From an uncultured Clostridia bacterium (GTDB taxonomy: Bacteria > Bacillota > Clostridia > TANB77 > CAG-508), in the NCBI GenBank assembly GCA_944392435.1, contig CALXWQ010000002.1, forward strand, positions 1-35,564: 35,564 bases of DNA, given 5' to 3'. This document shows, piece after piece, positions 101-32,704 of this stretch; the first letter of the stretch is position 1, and the number at the start of each line of letters is the position of its first letter. The notes under the pieces were generated by a model that did no database searches, was not told where the DNA came from, and saw only the letters and a list, made by a program, of their open reading frames with translations. The position numbers and the translations under genes were made by a program.

Positions 101-266
101 GTTACTGTTCAGTGTAATTTATATAGAATGCTCGCATAATTCATGACAATAATGTAGTTCCACGTGGTAGATATATATTTTGTTCGAATACCTGGAGAAC
201 ACAATATATATCTACCAGCAAGATGGAACGGACTTTTCTGTAATATTTTTTATACTGAACAGTAAC
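101..266 (+). repeat. Family X element, copy 1: core hairpin 149-236 enclosed by outer inverted repeat 101-116 / 251-266
   Basis: Core: ATAATGTAGTTCCACGTGGTAGATATATATTTTGTTCGAATACCTGGAGAACACAATATATATCTACCAGCAAGATGGAACGGACTTTT. Closing helix GTTCCA/TGGAAC, inner helix GGTAGATATATATT/AATATATATCTACC. Outer arms GTTACTGTTCAGT / ACTGAACAGTAAC are 13 bp perfect. Confidence 0.8.
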
Positions 267-272
267 GTAATT

Positions 273-287
273 GTTACTACTCACGGC
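273..287 (+). repeat. Solo family Z-like arm next to X copy 1
   Basis: GTTACTACTCACGGC compares with GTTACAATTCACGGC. No convincing partner arm was found. Confidence 0.35.
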
Positions 288-373
288 TTGTCTATTGTAA
301 TTTATAAATAAAGCATTTTATAAAAAATACGAGAATATTTGATAGAATTTAAGCAGTATACTTCTAACCTAAA

Positions 374-3856: not shown

Positions 3857-3948
3857 AACGAAAGTGTATAGAATAATGTGTTTTAATCTTTTAAAATGCT
3901 GAAATACTTAAGAAATTTTTAATTTAACACAATAAAAAATACATAGTC
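3857..3948 (+). repeat. Family Y repeat, copy A (inside the RR-HK spacer)
   Basis: AACGAAAGTGTATAGAATAATGTGTTTTAATCTTTTAAAATGCTGAAATACTTAAGAAATTTTTAATTTAACACAATAAAAAATACATAGTC. Confidence 0.7.
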
Positions 3949-4742: not shown

Positions 4743-4763
4743 ATTATATCATGAATTATACCA
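4743..4763 (-). promoter_or_regulatory. Two tandem extended -10 boxes upstream of the response-regulator gene
   Basis: The minus strand reads TGGTATAAT (4755-4763) and TGATATAAT (4743-4751), 38-58 nt upstream of the ATG at 4705. Both overlap the Z-like hairpin. Confidence 0.45.
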
Positions 4764-4780
4764 TTGTTACAGTTCATGAT
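4748..4780. repeat. Family Z-like hairpin upstream of the response-regulator gene
   Basis: ATCATGAATT-ataccattgttac-AGTTCATGAT. GTTACAGTTCATGAT resembles the Z TIR. Confidence 0.5.
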
Positions 4781-8545: not shown

Positions 8546-8641
8546 GTTACAATTCACGGCTATCTTTACAAAATAACGGTTGTAAATTATAGTAAAATAG
8601 TTACAATTTTTCACATACTTTTCACAAATCCGTTGTATAAT
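8546..8641 (+). repeat. Two tandem diverged family Z-like units
   Basis: Unit 1: GTTACAATTCACGGCTATCTTTACAAAATAACGGTTGTAAATTATAG. Unit 2: GTTACAATTTTTCACATACTTTTCACAAATCCGTTGTATAATAT. Each can pair GTTACAA with TTGTAA. Confidence 0.5.
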
Positions 8642-14849: not shown

Positions 14850-14960
14850 CTACTTTTTACACTTCACGACTGACCTATTTACACTTGTAAGGCAAGAAAT
14901 AACATTTTCTTGCCCTATATTTATGAATAGCAATTGGCAAGTCTTGAAGTGCAAAAGTAG
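14850..14960. repeat. Family Z-like long hairpin (21-22-nt arms) with an internal 9-bp hairpin
   Basis: Arms CTACTTTTTACACTTCACGACT / AGTCTTGAAGTGCAAAAGTAG give 19 paired positions. Internal hairpin GGCAAGAAA-taacat-TTTCTTGCC is at 14891-14914. TTACACTTCACGACT resembles the Z TIR TTACAATTCACGGCT, and the A-to-C change is matched in the partner arm (GAAGTG versus GAATTG). Confidence 0.6.
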
Positions 14961-28227: not shown

Positions 28228-28267
28228 GTTACTCTTTAATTCAGTTTACTGTTTTATAAGAGTAAAC
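28228..28267. repeat. Compact hairpin resembling the outer arms of X copy 1 but without the X core
   Basis: GTTACTCTTTAATTCAGT-tt-ACTGTTTTATAAGAGTAAAC. GTTACTCTT/AAGAGTAAC and CAGT/ACTG pair. Compare GTTACTGTTCAGT...ACTGAACAGTAAC around X copy 1. Confidence 0.5.
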
Positions 28268-28944: not shown

Positions 28945-29373
28945 ATGAGTGATAATGATATGAATAATATAATGAATCAAATTAATAATATGATTAAAAA
29001 TAATGAAATACCTGATGATTTAAAAAGTATTATAAATGGTTTCAAGCCTTCTTCAAATTCAAGCAATAAAAATACTAAACTAAATGGTTCTGGTAAAAGC
29101 AATTACAGTCAAAATAGCTCTAGCGAAAATAGCAAAGATAATTCTTCTGAAATTCCTGACATAGACATTAATACTATTTTAAAAATGAAACAAATAATGG
29201 ATTCAATGAATTCAAATAAAGATGATCCTAGAGCAAATCTCTTGATGTCTTTAAAACCTTATTTAAAGGATAGCAGAAAACAAAAAGTAGATCAATATGT
29301 AAAATTGTTTGGTCTTGGAAAAGCTTTTGAATTGTTTGGTTCCCTAGGTGGTGAAAATAAAAATGACGTATAA
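28945..29373 (+). CDS. Hypothetical protein with an N/S-rich linker and a conserved-looking basic C-terminal segment
   Basis: ATG at 28945 with GGAGG 5 nt upstream. The C-terminus DPRANLLMSLKPYLKDSRKQKVDQYVKLFGLGKAF resembles small uncharacterised Clostridia proteins I recall only vaguely. Confidence 0.6.
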   Translation: MSDNDMNNIMNQINNMIKNNEIPDDLKSIINGFKPSSNSSNKNTKLNGSGKSNYSQNSSSENSKDNSSEIPDIDINTILKMKQIMDSMNSNKDDPRANLLMSLKPYLKDSRKQKVDQYVKLFGLGKAFELFGSLGGENKNDV

Positions 29374-29668
29374 TTATCCTTTATTTCCCCAGTTTTACCC
29401 AAGACCTTACTATGGTTATACACAAAAAAGCAATTGTAACGTGAATAACAATCATATTAATCATATTAAAAGTTCAAATATTGAGCATGAGAAAAATAAT
29501 TCTAGATCTAAGAATATTAATATTGAAGATGATGTTTTATTTGAAATTTTCGGAATAAAACTGCATCAAGATGATATTTTGCTTATTTGTTTAATTTTCT
29601 TTTTATATAACGAAGGTGTTAAAGATGAGTTTTTGTTCATTGTACTAGTCTTACTTCTATTATCATAA
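29363..29668 (+). CDS. Hypothetical small protein: Tyr/Pro-rich N-terminus, hydrophobic C-terminus
   Basis: ATG at 29363 has GGTGGTGA 8 nt upstream and overlaps the upstream stop by 11 nt, suggesting translational coupling. Sequence: MTYNYPLFPQFYPRPYYGY...DDILLICLIFFLYNEGVKDEFLFIVLVLLLLS. Confidence 0.5.
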   Translation: MTYNYPLFPQFYPRPYYGYTQKSNCNVNNNHINHIKSSNIEHEKNNSRSKNINIEDDVLFEIFGIKLHQDDILLICLIFFLYNEGVKDEFLFIVLVLLLLS

Positions 29669-29673
29669 AAAAT

Positions 29674-29831
29674 AACGAAAGTATATAGATTAATGTGTTT
29701 TAAATTTTAAAAGATGGTAAAGTATTACAATTCACGGCTTGTTAATTATATTTAAAATTTGCGATAAGCAGGCCATGAATTGTAACGGTAAAGTGCGTAA
29801 TTTTTTTATTTAACACGCTAAAAAACACATT
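29674..29831 (+). repeat. Family Y repeat, copy B (interrupted by the Z insertion)
   Basis: AACGAAAGTATATAGATTAATGTGTTTTAAATTTTAAAAGATGGTAAAGT[Z insertion + duplicated GGTAAAGT]GCGTAATTTTTTTATTTAACACGCTAAAAAACACATT. Confidence 0.65.
29724..29786. mobile_element. Family Z: 63-bp MITE-like (miniature inverted-repeat transposable element) insertion with 15-bp TIRs and an 8-bp flanking direct repeat
   Basis: ATTACAATTCACGGC...GCCATGAATTGTAAC (13 of 15 complementary). It is flanked by GGTAAAGT at 29716-29723 and 29787-29794. It interrupts family Y copy B at a point where copies A and C are continuous. Confidence 0.6.
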
Positions 29832-29845
29832 GCCAAAAGGTGAGC

Positions 29846-30463
29846 CTATTCTAAAATAAGCTCATCTTTATCATTAATATATGCTGATGTTTTTACTTTA
29901 CGTATTGTATCGGTATCTTTCTCTATTTCTTTTACTTTGTCTGCAATTCTAATTTGTACTGCTTCTATTTCGGATGCCTCTATAACTGCGTCTTTATTTC
30001 CTTTAGCTCCCGCATGCGCTAGTCCTCGCAATATGCCAAGTACTACTATGTTTTCACCTGCTATAACTTCTGCACCTGCGTTTACATCCCCAATAATAAC
30101 TAGGCTTCCCTCAAATTCTATTCTTTGACCTGATCTTAAAGAACCTTTGTGGAATTTTGTCTCTGAAGTTGCAACTTCTTTATAAAATGTCTTTTTTATT
30201 CCGTGTAGCCCTAGTACTTTTGGGCTGTCAAAATCTATTTGCACATCTATAAATTTTTTTATTAGATTTTGAATTTCATCCATTTCCTTATTTTTTAGAA
30301 TTTTACCTGTAATTAAGATTGGTGTTTTATCATCTTTGTACAAGTTTTTAAGTTCCATCATCTTCTTTTTTAGTTCCCCTATAATTTCTTTTTGTTCAGC
30401 ATTGTCATCAATCTTAATTTCAACTTGATTCTTTTTTATACTAATACTTATACAACTATTCAT
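29846..30463 (-). CDS. minC: Septum site-determining protein MinC
   Basis: C-terminal beta-helix signature GSLRSGQRIEFEGSLVIIGDVNAGAEVIAGENIVVLGILRGLAHAG. GGAGG lies upstream of the ATG at 30463. Confidence 0.9.
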   Translation of the reverse strand: MNSCISISIKKNQVEIKIDDNAEQKEIIGELKKKMMELKNLYKDDKTPILITGKILKNKEMDEIQNLIKKFIDVQIDFDSPKVLGLHGIKKTFYKEVATSETKFHKGSLRSGQRIEFEGSLVIIGDVNAGAEVIAGENIVVLGILRGLAHAGAKGNKDAVIEASEIEAVQIRIADKVKEIEKDTDTIRKVKTSAYINDKDELILE

Positions 30464-30507
30464 CTTGACCTCCAGTTTGTTTCATTTTCTATTTAAGTAC
30501 TCTTTTT

Positions 30508-30600
30508 GACCATTTATTTTTTAGTGTGATAATTTGAAAATTTCTTAAGTATTTAGCATTTTCTTATATTAAAAACGCACTATTTTATACACTTTCTTCA
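30508..30600 (-). repeat. Family Y repeat, copy C (PBP2-minC spacer, inverted relative to copy B)
   Basis: The reverse complement reads GAAGAAAGTGTATAAAATAGTGCGTTTTTAATATAAGAAAATGCTAAATACTTAAGAAATTTTCAAATTATCACACTAAAAAATAAATGGTC. By hand alignment about 75 of ~90 positions are identical to copy A. Confidence 0.7.
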
Positions 30601-30613
30601 TTAGTATATTTTA

Positions 30614-32704
30614 CTACCTAACACTTTCTACGCCAGATTGTGCATTTTTATCTTCTGTAACTTCCTCTGCGTTCATTCCAAAGTACTCTTCCATTATTGC
30701 TTTTGCAACTGAAGCTGTGTAACCTCCAGAGCTTGCTTTTTCTACTAATACGACAACAGCAATTTCTGGTTTATCATATGGTGCAAAACCAACAAACCAA
30801 CCATGTGCTTCTTCTTTTCCATCAGGCATTATAACTTGTGCAGAACCTGTTTTTCCTGCAATGTCCATATCGAAATCTGCAAATGTAGAATAAGCTGTAC
30901 CTCCGGCTTCGCTTGTAACTCCTCTCATTCCTTTCTTAATTGCATCCAAGTTTTCTTTCGAAATTTCAATGTCTTCTTTTACTTCATTTTCAGTGTCCAA
31001 TTTTTCTTTTACAAATTTATCAATTTCTTCTTTTGATACTTCTGTTCCGTCTGGATTTATTATAGATTTTACTATACTTACATCTATATTTTTTCCTCCA
31101 TTAGCTAGCATGCTTACATATCTTGCCATTTGAATTGGAGTAAAATTATTATATGATTGTCCTATTGCTGCTGATAAAGTATCTGATAAATACCATGTGT
31201 ATCCTATGCTTTCTGCATACGCTGTGCTTGCAAGAGTTCCTGAGGCTTCTCCTTCCAATTCTATTCCTGTTCTTTTTCCTAATCCGTATTTTTGCGCATA
31301 TTCTGCAATTTTATCAATTCCTAATCTGTATCCCATTTCATAGAAGAAATAGTTACAAGAATATTTTATTGCTTGTGTTACATTTAAGTATCCATGTCCT
31401 GTTCTATAACTTCTATAATACCAGCAAGCTGGATGGTGTCCATACGGATATACTCCAGTATCATTTATTTTTGTTGTAGGTGTTATTTTTCCTTCTGCCA
31501 ATGCAGCTGTTGCGACTGCCATCTTAAATGTTGAACCAGGTGGCTGTGCACTAGATATTGCTCTATTATTATATCTTCCTGAATTATCGTCAGCCGAATA
31601 TTCCTCAGAGTATCTTTCAGGGTTATAATCTGGATAACTTGCCATTGCTAGGACTTCTCCTGTGTTTACATTCATAACAACTACTGCTCCAGCATCTGCA
31701 TTATGCTTTTTTCCACCATATTTTCCTGCTGCAATATCTTCAATATTTTGTTTTAATGCATCTTCTGCTACTTTTTGTAGATTAGCATCAATTGTTAGCA
31801 CTACATCAGACCCAGCTACCGCTTCCTCTGATATATATTCGCTAGTTATTGCTCCGTCAACGGTCATATCAACTTGTTTTATACCATCAGTTCCTTTTAA
31901 ATATTCTTCAAAAACTTTTTGTATTCCTGACTTTCCTATTATATCGTCATTTCTATACGTATCTTTTCTAGTTTCATATTCTTCTTTGTTTATTGCACCT
32001 ACATAGCCTAATACATGTGAAGCTAAATTTCCTGACTTATATGAAACAGTTGGTTCTGTGACAACATTCATTCCTGCAAGACTTGCATTTTGTTCTCTTA
32101 TCTGTACTGCAGAAATATCACTTATATTTTTTGCAATTGTTACAGACCTTGTACTACTATATCCATTTCTTGATATTTCATATCTAACAGCCATAATTTT
32201 TCTTGCTACTTGTAGGTCATCTGCTGTTATTTTGTATTTATTTTTTAAATAATAAAATACCTGCTCAGCATTATAATTCTCGTCTATGTTATTATTTTTT
32301 TTCCAACTTTTTTGTTCTTCTTCAGACTCTATAGTAAATTCAAATGGTTCAACTTTTATTGGTAAATTGTCTACAAACTCGTCCTTATTTGATTCCAATA
32401 TTTGTACAAATTTTTGTATTGAAGTGTTAAGACCTTCATCATCTACTTTTGTACTATATATTTCAACACTATATCCTGTGTCAGTATTTACTAAATCCAC
32501 ACCTGTTCTATCTTTAATAGATCCTCTAGCAGCTTTTACAATACTCTCTCTAGTAAGCCTTGAGTTAGAAGTTTCTCTATATTCAGCCCCATGTATAATC
32601 TGTAAATTAAATAATTGTATAAGAAGTATTATACCAACTATGTATGTAATTGTTGTAATTATATTATATCTTATTCTTTCTCCAGCTCCACCATTCTTCC
32701 CCAA
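30614..32704 (-). CDS. mrdA: Penicillin-binding protein 2 (elongation transpeptidase)
   Basis: N-terminal TM, PBP dimerisation region, SxxK (GSTFK), SxN (YSCNYF), KTG (AGKTGSA). No in-frame ATG near the start. TTG at 32704 has GGTGGTGA 4 nt upstream. Confidence 0.9.
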   Translation of the reverse strand: MGKNGGAGERIRYNIITTITYIVGIILLIQLFNLQIIHGAEYRETSNSRLTRESIVKAARGSIKDRTGVDLVNTDTGYSVEIYSTKVDDEGLNTSIQKFVQILESNKDEFVDNLPIKVEPFEFTIESEEEQKSWKKNNNIDENYNAEQVFYYLKNKYKITADDLQVARKIMAVRYEISRNGYSSTRSVTIAKNISDISAVQIREQNASLAGMNVVTEPTVSYKSGNLASHVLGYVGAINKEEYETRKDTYRNDDIIGKSGIQKVFEEYLKGTDGIKQVDMTVDGAITSEYISEEAVAGSDVVLTIDANLQKVAEDALKQNIEDIAAGKYGGKKHNADAGAVVVMNVNTGEVLAMASYPDYNPERYSEEYSADDNSGRYNNRAISSAQPPGSTFKMAVATAALAEGKITPTTKINDTGVYPYGHHPACWYYRSYRTGHGYLNVTQAIKYSCNYFFYEMGYRLGIDKIAEYAQKYGLGKRTGIELEGEASGTLASTAYAESIGYTWYLSDTLSAAIGQSYNNFTPIQMARYVSMLANGGKNIDVSIVKSIINPDGTEVSKEEIDKFVKEKLDTENEVKEDIEISKENLDAIKKGMRGVTSEAGGTAYSTFADFDMDIAGKTGSAQVIMPDGKEEAHGWFVGFAPYDKPEIAVVVLVEKASSGGYTASVAKAIMEEYFGMNAEEVTEDKNAQSGVESVR

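What the first reader, a model, noticed from the sequence alone, without database searches (positions are those of the whole stretch)
29716..29794. A 63-bp element with 15-bp TIRs and an 8-bp direct duplication, inserted into another repeat: evidence that family Z is or was mobile
- **Structure:** the sequence reads GGTAAAGT | ATTACAATTCACGGC ...33 nt... GCCATGAATTGTAAC | GGTAAAGT.
- **Terminal repeats:** they match at 13 of 15 positions.
- **Flanking duplication:** the 8-mer is exactly duplicated at 29716-29723 and 29787-29794.
- **Paralogous empty sites:** family Y copies A (3857-3948) and C (30508-30600) run straight through the equivalent point (AAAATGCTGAAATACTTAAGAAATTT). After removing the element and one 8-mer, copy B realigns with them.
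- **Size:** this TIR-plus-TSD signature belongs to a non-autonomous transposon (MITE), yet the element is far smaller than typical bacterial MITEs. No transposase is in the window.
- **Related arms:** they occur at 273-287, 4748-4780, 8546-8641 and 14850-14960. The outer boxes of X copies 1 and 4 and the compact hairpin at 28228-28267 (GTTACTNTTCAG type) look like the same or a sister family, which suggests nested insertions.
Basis: seen in the sequence. Interest (0 to 1): 0.65.

Follow-up and report, generated by a model that had tools for sequence, protein, structure and literature searches.

The report
Tiny IS66-type MITE nested in repeat
The 63-base segment is a real miniature non-coding transposon that landed inside another repeat; it borrows the ends of an IS66-family insertion sequence found in a sister species, so it is ordinary selfish DNA at the very small end of the size range.

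Summary
**Observation.** It is exact: GGTAAAGT | 15-bp end ... 33 nt ... 15-bp end | GGTAAAGT at 29716-29794.

**Not chance.**
- The end motif GTTACAATTCACGGC occurs 64 times (up to 2 mismatches) in this 1.1-Mb chicken-gut Clostridia MAG. The reversed control gives 0.
- There are 29 inverted pairs, 61-272 bp long.
- 11 pairs have an exact 8-bp flanking duplication and 8 more match at 7 of 8. Offset controls gave 0 exact in 899.

**Inserted, not ancestral.**
- Eight other copies of host repeat Y in this genome lack the 71-bp insert.
- The same spacer in the ten congeneric species examined has neither Y nor Z.

**Likely driver.** A sister species carries a 1,934-bp element with the same 15-bp ends and an 8-bp duplication. 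It has one intact 530-aa IS66-family transposase gene (single-ORF ISBst12 type). No such gene is in this 70%-complete assembly.

**Age.** All eight metagenome runs checked carry the filled site, with point changes. The insertion is therefore old and fixed, and no empty allele was seen.

**Size.** The element matches a 99-bp family member minus its central hairpin. Related copies go down to 55 bp. Two 68-bp twins with different duplications suggest such tiny forms can transpose.

**Verdict.** New member of a known kind, modest interest.

The parts
29716..29723 (.). Left copy of the 8-bp target-site duplication, GGTAAAGT.
   Evidence: Read directly. Exact 8-bp flanking duplications occur in 11 of 29 family copies, against 0 of 899 offset controls.
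29724..29738 (+). Left terminal inverted repeat, ATTACAATTCACGGC. The first base is G, the family consensus, in some strains.
   Evidence: The strain variant 29724 A>G is seen in runs X19 and X20. Apart from that first base, it is identical to the end of the IS66-family element in G008.
29739..29771 (.). 33-nt AT-rich interior with no coding capacity. It corresponds to the subterminal arms of the 99-bp Z type with the central 36-bp hairpin missing.
   Evidence: Alignment with C76:23269-23367, C47:5978-6045 and others. The whole element folds as a hairpin at -21.8 kcal/mol, z = -6.3. No Rfam match.
29772..29786 (-). Right terminal inverted repeat. On the minus strand it reads GTTACAATTCATGGC.
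29787..29794 (.). Right copy of the 8-bp target-site duplication, GGTAAAGT.
29677..29834 (+). Host repeat Y, copy B, interrupted in its central and least conserved part by the Z element plus one duplication copy (71 bp).
   Evidence: Alignment of 9 genomic Y copies; only this one has the insert. Y is absent from the same spacer in the 10 congeners examined.
3860..3948 (+). Y copy A, a paralogous empty site.
30508..30596 (-). Y copy C, a paralogous empty site in inverted orientation.
273..343 (+). Truncated Z copy. The end is GTTACTACTCACGGC, followed by about 55 nt that match the left arm of the 271-bp Z form.
8546..8560 (+). Solo Z end, an exact GTTACAATTCACGGC with no recognisable partner end.
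14856..14954 (+). Decayed 99-bp Z copy. Its ends are TTTACACTTCACGAC and TTTGCACTTCAAGAC, and its architecture matches C76:23269-23367.
102..266 (+). Sister-family X element with ends GTTACTGTTCAG ... CTGAACAGTAAC. It is not part of Z, but it shares GTTAC..TTCA and the 8-bp duplication habit.
   Evidence: An X copy is nested in a 56-bp mini-Z at C38:7539-7766 with its own duplication TATTTATA.

Best explanation
The 63-bp segment is a miniature inverted-repeat transposable element (MITE) of family Z.

**How it works**
- It has two 15-bp ends of consensus GTTACAATTCACGGC and a 33-nt non-coding interior. It inserted into the middle of a copy of another dispersed repeat, Y, in the spacer between two convergent genes, one of them minC. 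The insertion duplicated 8 bp of target, GGTAAAGT.
- It cannot move by itself. It is mobilised in trans by a DDE transposase of the IS66 family, single-ORF ISBst12 type. That enzyme recognises the 15-bp ends and makes staggered cuts 8 bp apart in the target. Repair of those cuts gives the duplication.

**Shown here**
- The anatomy of the element.
- The family-wide 8-bp duplications.
- The empty paralogous Y copies.
- A 1,934-bp IS in a congeneric MAG with the same ends, an 8-bp duplication and an intact 530-aa IS66-family transposase gene.

**Inferred**
- That this enzyme, or a close relative once or still resident in this species, moved Z.
- That the 15-bp ends are sufficient. They are all that the IS and the MITEs share.
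- The copy-and-paste mode, which is reported for ISDge4 only.

**Origin and effect**
- The 63-bp form arose from a roughly 99-bp form by loss of the central hairpin. That form is itself a shortened or fold-back derivative of the 271-bp form.
- The insertion is old. It is fixed in all strains sampled and carries point mutations.
- It most likely has no host function. It lies 56 and 60 nt beyond the two stop codons, and the scan found no terminator-like site.
For: **Anatomy and family**
- Anatomy read directly.
- 64 motif hits against 0 controls, and 29 inverted pairs of 61-272 bp.
- Flanking duplications are exact in 11 pairs and 7 of 8 in 8 more. Offset controls gave 0 of 899. Exact matches occur only at length 8.
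- All 29 copies are intergenic.

**Insertion**
- Eight other Y copies are empty at the site.
- The same spacer in the ten congeners examined has no Y and no Z. In G044 it is only about 2 bp long.

**Autonomous partner**
- It lies at G008:C11:33031-34964. The ends are GTTACAATTCACGGCC and GTTACAATTCACAGCC, and the duplication is AAATTTGA.
- It has a single 530-aa ORF with no stops. The ORF matches Pfam PF03050 DDE_Tnp_IS66 (E = 1.7e-18) and NCBIfam NF033517 IS66 transposase (190 bits, cut-off 180).
- A second IS, 88% identical in protein, has the same ends in another uncultured Clostridia MAG. A third, 74% identical, has ends GTTACTATTCACAGC.

**Match to the known group**
- The ISBst12-group member ISDge4 has one ORF, ends GTAACTGCTCAGCA and an 8-bp direct repeat, and behaves as copy-and-paste (PMC12898284).

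**Short forms**
- Two 68-bp twins, C10:22824-22891 and C10:24042-24109, are identical at 66 of 68 positions. They have unrelated flanks and different duplications.
- A 55-bp copy in G007 has the exact duplication TAAATTTT.

**Lineage-specific expansion**
- 54 ends with up to 1 mismatch in this genome, against at most 12 in any of 40 relatives.
Against: - No IS66-family transposase is present in this genome's assembly (tblastn; the genome search; PF03050). The assembly is only 69.6% complete and breaks at repeats, so absence is not proven. Even so, the partner is documented only in other species.
- No empty allele of this site was found in 8 metagenome runs. Mobility at this locus therefore rests on paralogues and on the duplication, not on a filled/empty polymorphism.
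- The IS and the MITEs share only the 15-16 terminal bases and no subterminal sequence.
- Ten of 29 pairs lack a recognisable duplication.
- One related IS, L014, has a 9-bp rather than an 8-bp flanking repeat.
Confidence: 0.88

Rival explanations
1. This rival has the same family and the same enzyme, but the element did not land as a 63-bp unit. A longer Z copy of about 99 bp or more inserted here. It later lost its central hairpin in place, through replication slippage across the palindrome. On this reading the extreme smallness says nothing about what the transposase can move.
For: - The 63-bp sequence aligns end to end with the 99-bp copy C76:23269-23367, apart from one 36-bp gap that removes the central hairpin.
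- No second copy of this exact 63-bp variant exists in the assembly.
- Long palindromes are known to be prone to deletion (general knowledge).
- A flanking duplication survives an internal deletion, so it cannot discriminate between the two histories.
Against: - Two 68-bp twins with the same internal structure sit at unrelated sites with different duplications.
- A 55-bp copy has a perfect duplication in another species.
- A 56-bp mini-Z hosts an X insertion.
- Several independent short copies therefore exist, and at least one short form has two copies. All 8 strains sampled have the same 63-bp length, so any deletion predates their divergence.
Confidence: 0.35
2. The element is a REP/REPIN-like hairpin repeat spread by a tyrosine (HUH, RAYT-type) transposase and not by a DDE enzyme.
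For: - It is a strong 63-nt hairpin in intergenic DNA.
- The genome encodes one Y1_Tnp protein, at C25:6580-6912, with a 271-aa open frame.
Against: - REP/RAYT systems make no target duplication (general knowledge). Z copies, by contrast, have exact 8-bp duplications.
- The Y1 gene's contig has no Z end. The gene is flanked by a different inverted repeat, GGGACAGG....
- The Z ends are identical to those of an IS66-family IS.
Confidence: 0.03
3. The segment is an ancestral or internally duplicated part of repeat Y, or a chance inverted repeat, and not an insertion.
For: Within the species, every strain sampled contains the segment.
Against: - Eight other Y copies lack it.
- The duplicated 8-mer does not extend into a longer Y duplication.
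- The same ends occur about 100 times elsewhere in the genome, outside Y.
- Chance expectation is far lower.
Confidence: 0.02

Closest known systems
ISBst12 group of the IS66 family (ISBst12 of Geobacillus stearothermophilus; ISDge4 of Deinococcus geothermalis, PMC12898284)
   Same: - The autonomous element with Z's ends has a single transposase ORF that matches DDE_Tnp_IS66 and NF033517.
- It makes an 8-bp target duplication.
- Its short imperfect ends begin GTnAC...TCA. ISDge4 has GTAACTGCTCAGCA and Z has GTTACAATTCACGGC.
   Different: - The finding itself has no ORF and is 63 bp long, against about 1.5-1.9 kb for the IS.
- It shares only the 15 terminal bases with the IS.
- The end sequence matches ISDge4 at only about 7 of 14 positions.
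- No resident IS copy was found in this genome's assembly.
IS-derived bacterial MITEs, e.g. MITEPsy1 of Pseudomonas syringae (100 nt, 18-nt ends, 4-nt duplication, ends like ISPsy2; PMC3189936). From my own knowledge: Correia/NEMIS of Neisseria and RUP of Streptococcus pneumoniae
   Same: - Non-coding and intergenic.
- Terminal inverted repeats plus a target duplication.
- Multicopy.
- Ends shared with a transposase-bearing IS that acts in trans.
- Hairpin-forming.
   Different: - The partner is of IS66 type. My one literature search listed 10 of the 11 papers holding the terms, and the two I opened described no IS66-derived MITE.
- The duplication is 8 bp.
- The family includes unusually short members of 55-68 bp, alongside 271-bp forms.
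REPINs / REP elements mobilised by RAYT transposases
   Same: Short hairpin-forming intergenic repeats in high copy number.
   Different: - By general knowledge, REPs make no target duplication and are tied to an HUH tyrosine transposase.
- Z has 8-bp duplications and DDE-type IS ends.
- The genome's one Y1 transposase gene is flanked by a different repeat.

Membership tests
MITE (non-autonomous DNA transposon) | Terminal inverted repeats | tested here: met
   The 15-bp ends match at 13 of 15 positions. With the strain variant 29724 G they match at 14 of 15.
MITE (non-autonomous DNA transposon) | Target-site duplication of fixed length flanking independent copies | tested here: met
   GGTAAAGT on both sides here. 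Across the family, 11 of 29 pairs are exact and 8 more match at 7 of 8, each with a different sequence and only at length 8. Offset controls gave 0 of 899.
MITE (non-autonomous DNA transposon) | No coding capacity; multicopy family | tested here: met
   The element is 63 bp. The genome has about 100 ends and 29 paired copies. All copies are intergenic.
MITE (non-autonomous DNA transposon) | Ends shared with an autonomous, transposase-encoding element | tested here: met
   G008:C11:33031-34964 has the same 15-bp ends, an 8-bp duplication and an intact transposase gene. It lies in a congeneric species, not in this genome.
MITE (non-autonomous DNA transposon) | Filled and empty alleles of the same site (direct evidence of insertion) | tested here: inconclusive
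   - Paralogous empty sites: 8 of 8 other Y copies.
- Other species lack Y and Z at this locus.
- All 8 same-species runs are filled.
- The metagenome-contig scans found neither allele.
IS66 family, ISBst12 group (as the mobilising partner) | Transposase with a DDE_Tnp_IS66 catalytic domain | tested here: met
   PF03050 at E = 1.7e-18 over profile positions 4-282 of 284. NF033517 at 190.4 bits against a cut-off of 180.
IS66 family, ISBst12 group (as the mobilising partner) | Single ORF, without the tnpA/tnpB accessory genes of classical IS66 | tested here: met
   The 530-aa ORF is the only substantial ORF within the 1,934-bp element. The only other ORF of 80 aa or more there is an 82-aa frame lying antisense inside it.
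IS66 family, ISBst12 group (as the mobilising partner) | 8-bp direct repeats at insertion sites | tested here: met
   AAATTTGA flanks the G008 IS. Z copies have 8-bp duplications. ISDge4 has the 8-bp repeat CCTCGATG. One relative, L014, shows 9 bp.
IS66 family, ISBst12 group (as the mobilising partner) | Partner transposase present in the same genome as the MITEs | tested here: not met
   No hit by tblastn, by protein search or by PF03050 in the 69.6%-complete assembly. Fragmentary contigs about 86% identical to the IS occur in the same chicken-gut metagenomes, but their host is unknown.
IS66 family, ISBst12 group (as the mobilising partner) | The transposase actually binds and moves Z ends | not testable with these tools
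   This needs a transposition or binding assay.
REP/REPIN (RAYT-mobilised) | No target duplication; association with a flanked RAYT gene | tested here: not met
   Z has 8-bp duplications. The only Y1_Tnp gene has no Z ends nearby.

The most novel reading that the evidence does not exclude
Palindromic mini-elements of only 55-68 bp, that is two 15-bp ends separated by 25-38 bp, may be genuine substrates of an ISBst12-type IS66 transposase. They would then be among the smallest functional DNA transposons known. So short a duplex cannot loop to bring its two ends together. Transposition would therefore have to use the extruded hairpin or cruciform, a single-stranded form, or ends from two different copies. 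That would give a handle on the poorly understood IS66 mechanism.
Probability: 0.2. Interest if true: 0.5.

Novelty: new member of a known kind. Interest (0 to 1): 0.3.

Why it matters
- **Annotation.** This is a useful but conceptually ordinary result. It names the enzyme family behind one of several dense repeat families that litter the intergenic DNA of these small-genome, uncultured chicken-gut Clostridia. It also explains why their MAGs fragment: several contigs end inside Z copies.
- **Literature gap.** It adds IS66/ISBst12-type elements to the IS families that spawn MITEs. The one literature search I ran did not turn up a description of this link.
- **The unusual aspect.** Size is the only mildly unusual feature. 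Copies of 55-68 bp with intact duplications, and one twin pair, hint that very short palindromes can be moved. That is testable with a simple length series.
- **Host effect.** No effect on neighbouring genes is indicated.

Tried and rejected
1. **Known RNA families.** Rfam found nothing at gathering score in the window. Around the element and in a 271-bp Z copy there were only sub-threshold hits of generic hairpin type. No tRNA or tmRNA genes.
2. **Transposase in the own genome.** None found.
3. **Empty allele in strains.**
   - Eight runs are all filled.
   - The two exact-pattern scans of metagenome contigs found neither the empty nor the filled junction. That collection apparently lacks the species, so the scans are uninformative.
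4. **Polymorphism at a young 271-bp copy (C7:2289-2559).** Logan contigs break at the repeat, so nothing can be said.
5. **Terminator role.** The scan found no terminator-like site in 29300-30700.
6. **Y as a structured hairpin.** Its folding energy is no better than shuffles, z = 0.0 to 0.5.
7. **Y as an oriented promoter module.** It contains TTGACC-16-GATAAT. By my reading of the copies' orientations, it points towards a downstream gene in only one of the three window copies.
8. **More copies of the 68-bp twin form in the genus.** Only the two known copies were found.
9. **The G017 pair of Z ends 895 bp apart.** It encloses an ordinary 199-aa gene, not a transposase.

Full report
**1. The observation**

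The two ends match at 13 of 15 positions. The duplicated 8-mer is exactly 8 bp long.

The window is contig C2 of a 1.1-Mb assembly of 99 contigs, 69.6% complete, with about 28% G+C. It carries spoIIE, mreB, a PBP2-type gene and minC. Sequencing runs that hold the stretch are chicken-gut metagenomes. A congeneric MAG is titled 'uncultured Clostridium sp.'.

**2. It is a family, not chance**

- The consensus end GTTACAATTCACGGC occurs 64 times with up to 2 mismatches, against 0 for the reversed control. With up to 3 mismatches it occurs 108 times against 9.
- In the window alone it occurs 6 times, against 0.45 expected from shuffles.
- Neighbouring plus/minus hits form 29 inverted pairs. Most fall in two size groups, about 61-100 bp and about 270-272 bp. 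Six more are 185-247 bp long and carry other cargo.
- The flanking 8-mers are identical in 11 pairs and match at 7 of 8 in 8 more. Each copy has a different 8-mer. Offset controls gave 0 of 899 exact matches, and exact matches appear only at length 8.
- All 29 copies lie between genes.

This is the signature of a transposon family that makes 8-bp target duplications.

**3. The element is an insertion into repeat Y**

Y has at least 9 copies in this genome, and only the copy at 29677-29834 carries the 71-bp insert (element plus one 8-mer). The other eight run straight through the equivalent point. The insert sits in Y's central, least conserved part.

In the ten congeneric species examined, the spacer between the conserved upstream ORF and minC has neither Y nor Z. 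It holds different sequence in each species, and in G044 it is only about 2 bp long. Y therefore arrived in this lineage, and Z then landed inside it.

**4. Age**

Eight metagenome runs with contigs of this species all have the filled site, with no gaps. They differ by point changes:
- 29771 G>A in seven of the eight runs.
- 29724 A>G in runs X19 and X20.

Both changes bring the element closer to the family consensus, GTTAC... and ...GGCTTGC. The window's strain therefore probably carries derived mutations. The insertion is fixed and not recent, and no empty allele was seen.

Two scans of the JGI metagenome contigs found neither the empty nor the filled junction, so they are uninformative.

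**5. The autonomous partner**

A search of 40 relatives for the end motif found one pair 1,934 bp apart, at G008:C11:33031-34964.
- The element has ends GTTACAATTCACGGCC and GTTACAATTCACAGCC, and an exact 8-bp duplication, AAATTTGA.
- It has one substantial ORF, of 530 aa with no stops.
- The protein matches Pfam DDE_Tnp_IS66 (E = 1.7e-18, nearly the full profile) and NCBIfam NF033517 'IS66 family transposase' (190 bits, cut-off 180).
- Two more full elements lie in other uncultured Clostridia MAGs. One is 88% identical in protein and has the same ends. The other is 74% identical and has ends GTTACTATTCACAGC.

A single ORF, an 8-bp direct repeat and ends of the type GTnAC...TCA are the features reported for ISDge4, which its authors place in the ISBst12 group of the IS66 family and describe as copy-and-paste (PMC12898284).

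The IS and the MITEs share only the terminal 15-16 bases.

This genome's assembly contains no IS66-type transposase. That may reflect incompleteness. Several contigs end inside Z copies, and short contigs about 86% identical to the IS are present in the same metagenomes, although their host is unknown.

The end motif is far more abundant here than in relatives: 54 hits with up to 1 mismatch, against at most 12 in any of the 40 relatives.

**6. Why it is so small**

- The 271-bp copies share a nearly invariant interior of about 170 bp. Their subterminal arms vary, but are often complementary within a copy.
- The short copies are made of these arms only.
- The 63-bp element aligns with the 99-bp copy C76:23269-23367, minus a 36-bp central hairpin. 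It has the same architecture as the 68-bp copy at C47:5978-6045.
- Still shorter copies exist. One of 55 bp in G007 has the perfect duplication TAAATTTT. A 56-bp mini-Z at C38:7539-7766 hosts a sister-family X element with its own duplication, TATTTATA.
- Two 68-bp copies on C10 are identical at 66 of 68 positions. Their flanks are unrelated and their duplications differ, GTGTCAGT and AGAATGTC. No further copies of that form exist in the genus.

The C10 twin pair is the only evidence that such short forms transpose as units. For the 63-bp copy itself, landing short and shrinking in place cannot be told apart.

**7. Function**

The element folds into a strong hairpin (-21.8 kcal/mol, z = -6.3). 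It lies 56 and 60 nt beyond the stops of the two convergent genes. The scan found no terminator-like site, and there is no Rfam match. I read it as selfish DNA with no demonstrated host role.

**8. Rivals**

- A REP/RAYT-type origin is unlikely. Z makes target duplications, and the genome's single Y1 transposase gene (C25:6580-6912) is flanked by a different repeat.
- Chance, or an internal Y duplication, is excluded by sections 2 and 3.

**9. Comparison and verdict**

Z is a new family of a known kind: an IS-derived bacterial MITE, here of the IS66/ISBst12 type. Earlier notes of this scan reached the same reading for other repeat families in gut Clostridia. The small size is real, but it is the low end of a 55-272-bp family.

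Noticed in passing
window 3860-3948, 29677-29834, 30508-30596; also C42:1222-1307, C3:27794-27839, C7:21400-21468, C39:3996-4063, C31:6190-6226, C1:13411-13436: Repeat Y is a dispersed intergenic family of about 90 bp with at least 9 copies. I could see no clear terminal repeats or target duplication, and it gives no folding signal. It is absent from the same locus in congeners, so it is probably mobile by an unknown route. It carries a promoter-like TTGACC-16-(TG)GATAAT.
   Followed up: partly
G000 C38:7539-7766: An X-family element (ends GTTACTGTTCAG) is nested inside a 56-bp mini-Z and has its own exact 8-bp duplication, TATTTATA. The two sister families therefore insert into each other.
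   Followed up: partly
G000 C7:2289-2559, C7:5890-6160, C13:4794-5064, C13:13533-13802, C34:5060-5330 and others: - The 271-bp Z copies are up to 99% identical to one another, with a nearly invariant interior of about 170 bp.
- The subterminal arms differ between copies, yet are often complementary within a copy.
- Summed contig depth over the interior is roughly 50-90 times that of the flanks in four metagenomes. This is a rough figure, because other organisms may contribute.
   Followed up: partly
G000 C25:6580-6912 (minus strand): This is the only Y1_Tnp (HUH, RAYT/IS200-like) gene in the assembly, with a 271-aa open frame. It is flanked by an inverted repeat, GGGACAGGCCTTTTTGCGACA / TGTCGCGAAAAGACCTGTCCC, which is unrelated to Z.
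   Followed up: partly
L018-L028 (spacer downstream of minC in congeners), e.g. L021 versus L019: The convergent spacer downstream of minC is an insertion hot spot, and each species holds different repeats there. G007 differs from G023 by an extra segment of about 170 bp. That segment creates a long inverted repeat with ends CTGTTACAAGTTAATGG.
   Followed up: no
L014 1243-3178: The related IS (88% identical transposase, same ends) is flanked by a 9-bp direct repeat, AAAAATAAT, rather than an 8-bp one. A third relative, L015, shows no clean duplication.
   Followed up: no
G000 C4:6151-6342, C59:4775-4967, C17:1981-2165; G007:C5:54964-55179: Z-type ends also enclose a different palindromic cargo of about 160 bp (…CCGGCCCCCAAC…GTACAAACTGT…). 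The same ends therefore carry at least three unrelated interiors.
   Followed up: no
window 28228-28267: A compact 40-bp hairpin, GTTACTCTTTAA...TTATAAGAGTAAAC. It has GTTAC-type ends but no flanking duplication, and may be a remnant of a further sister family.
   Followed up: no
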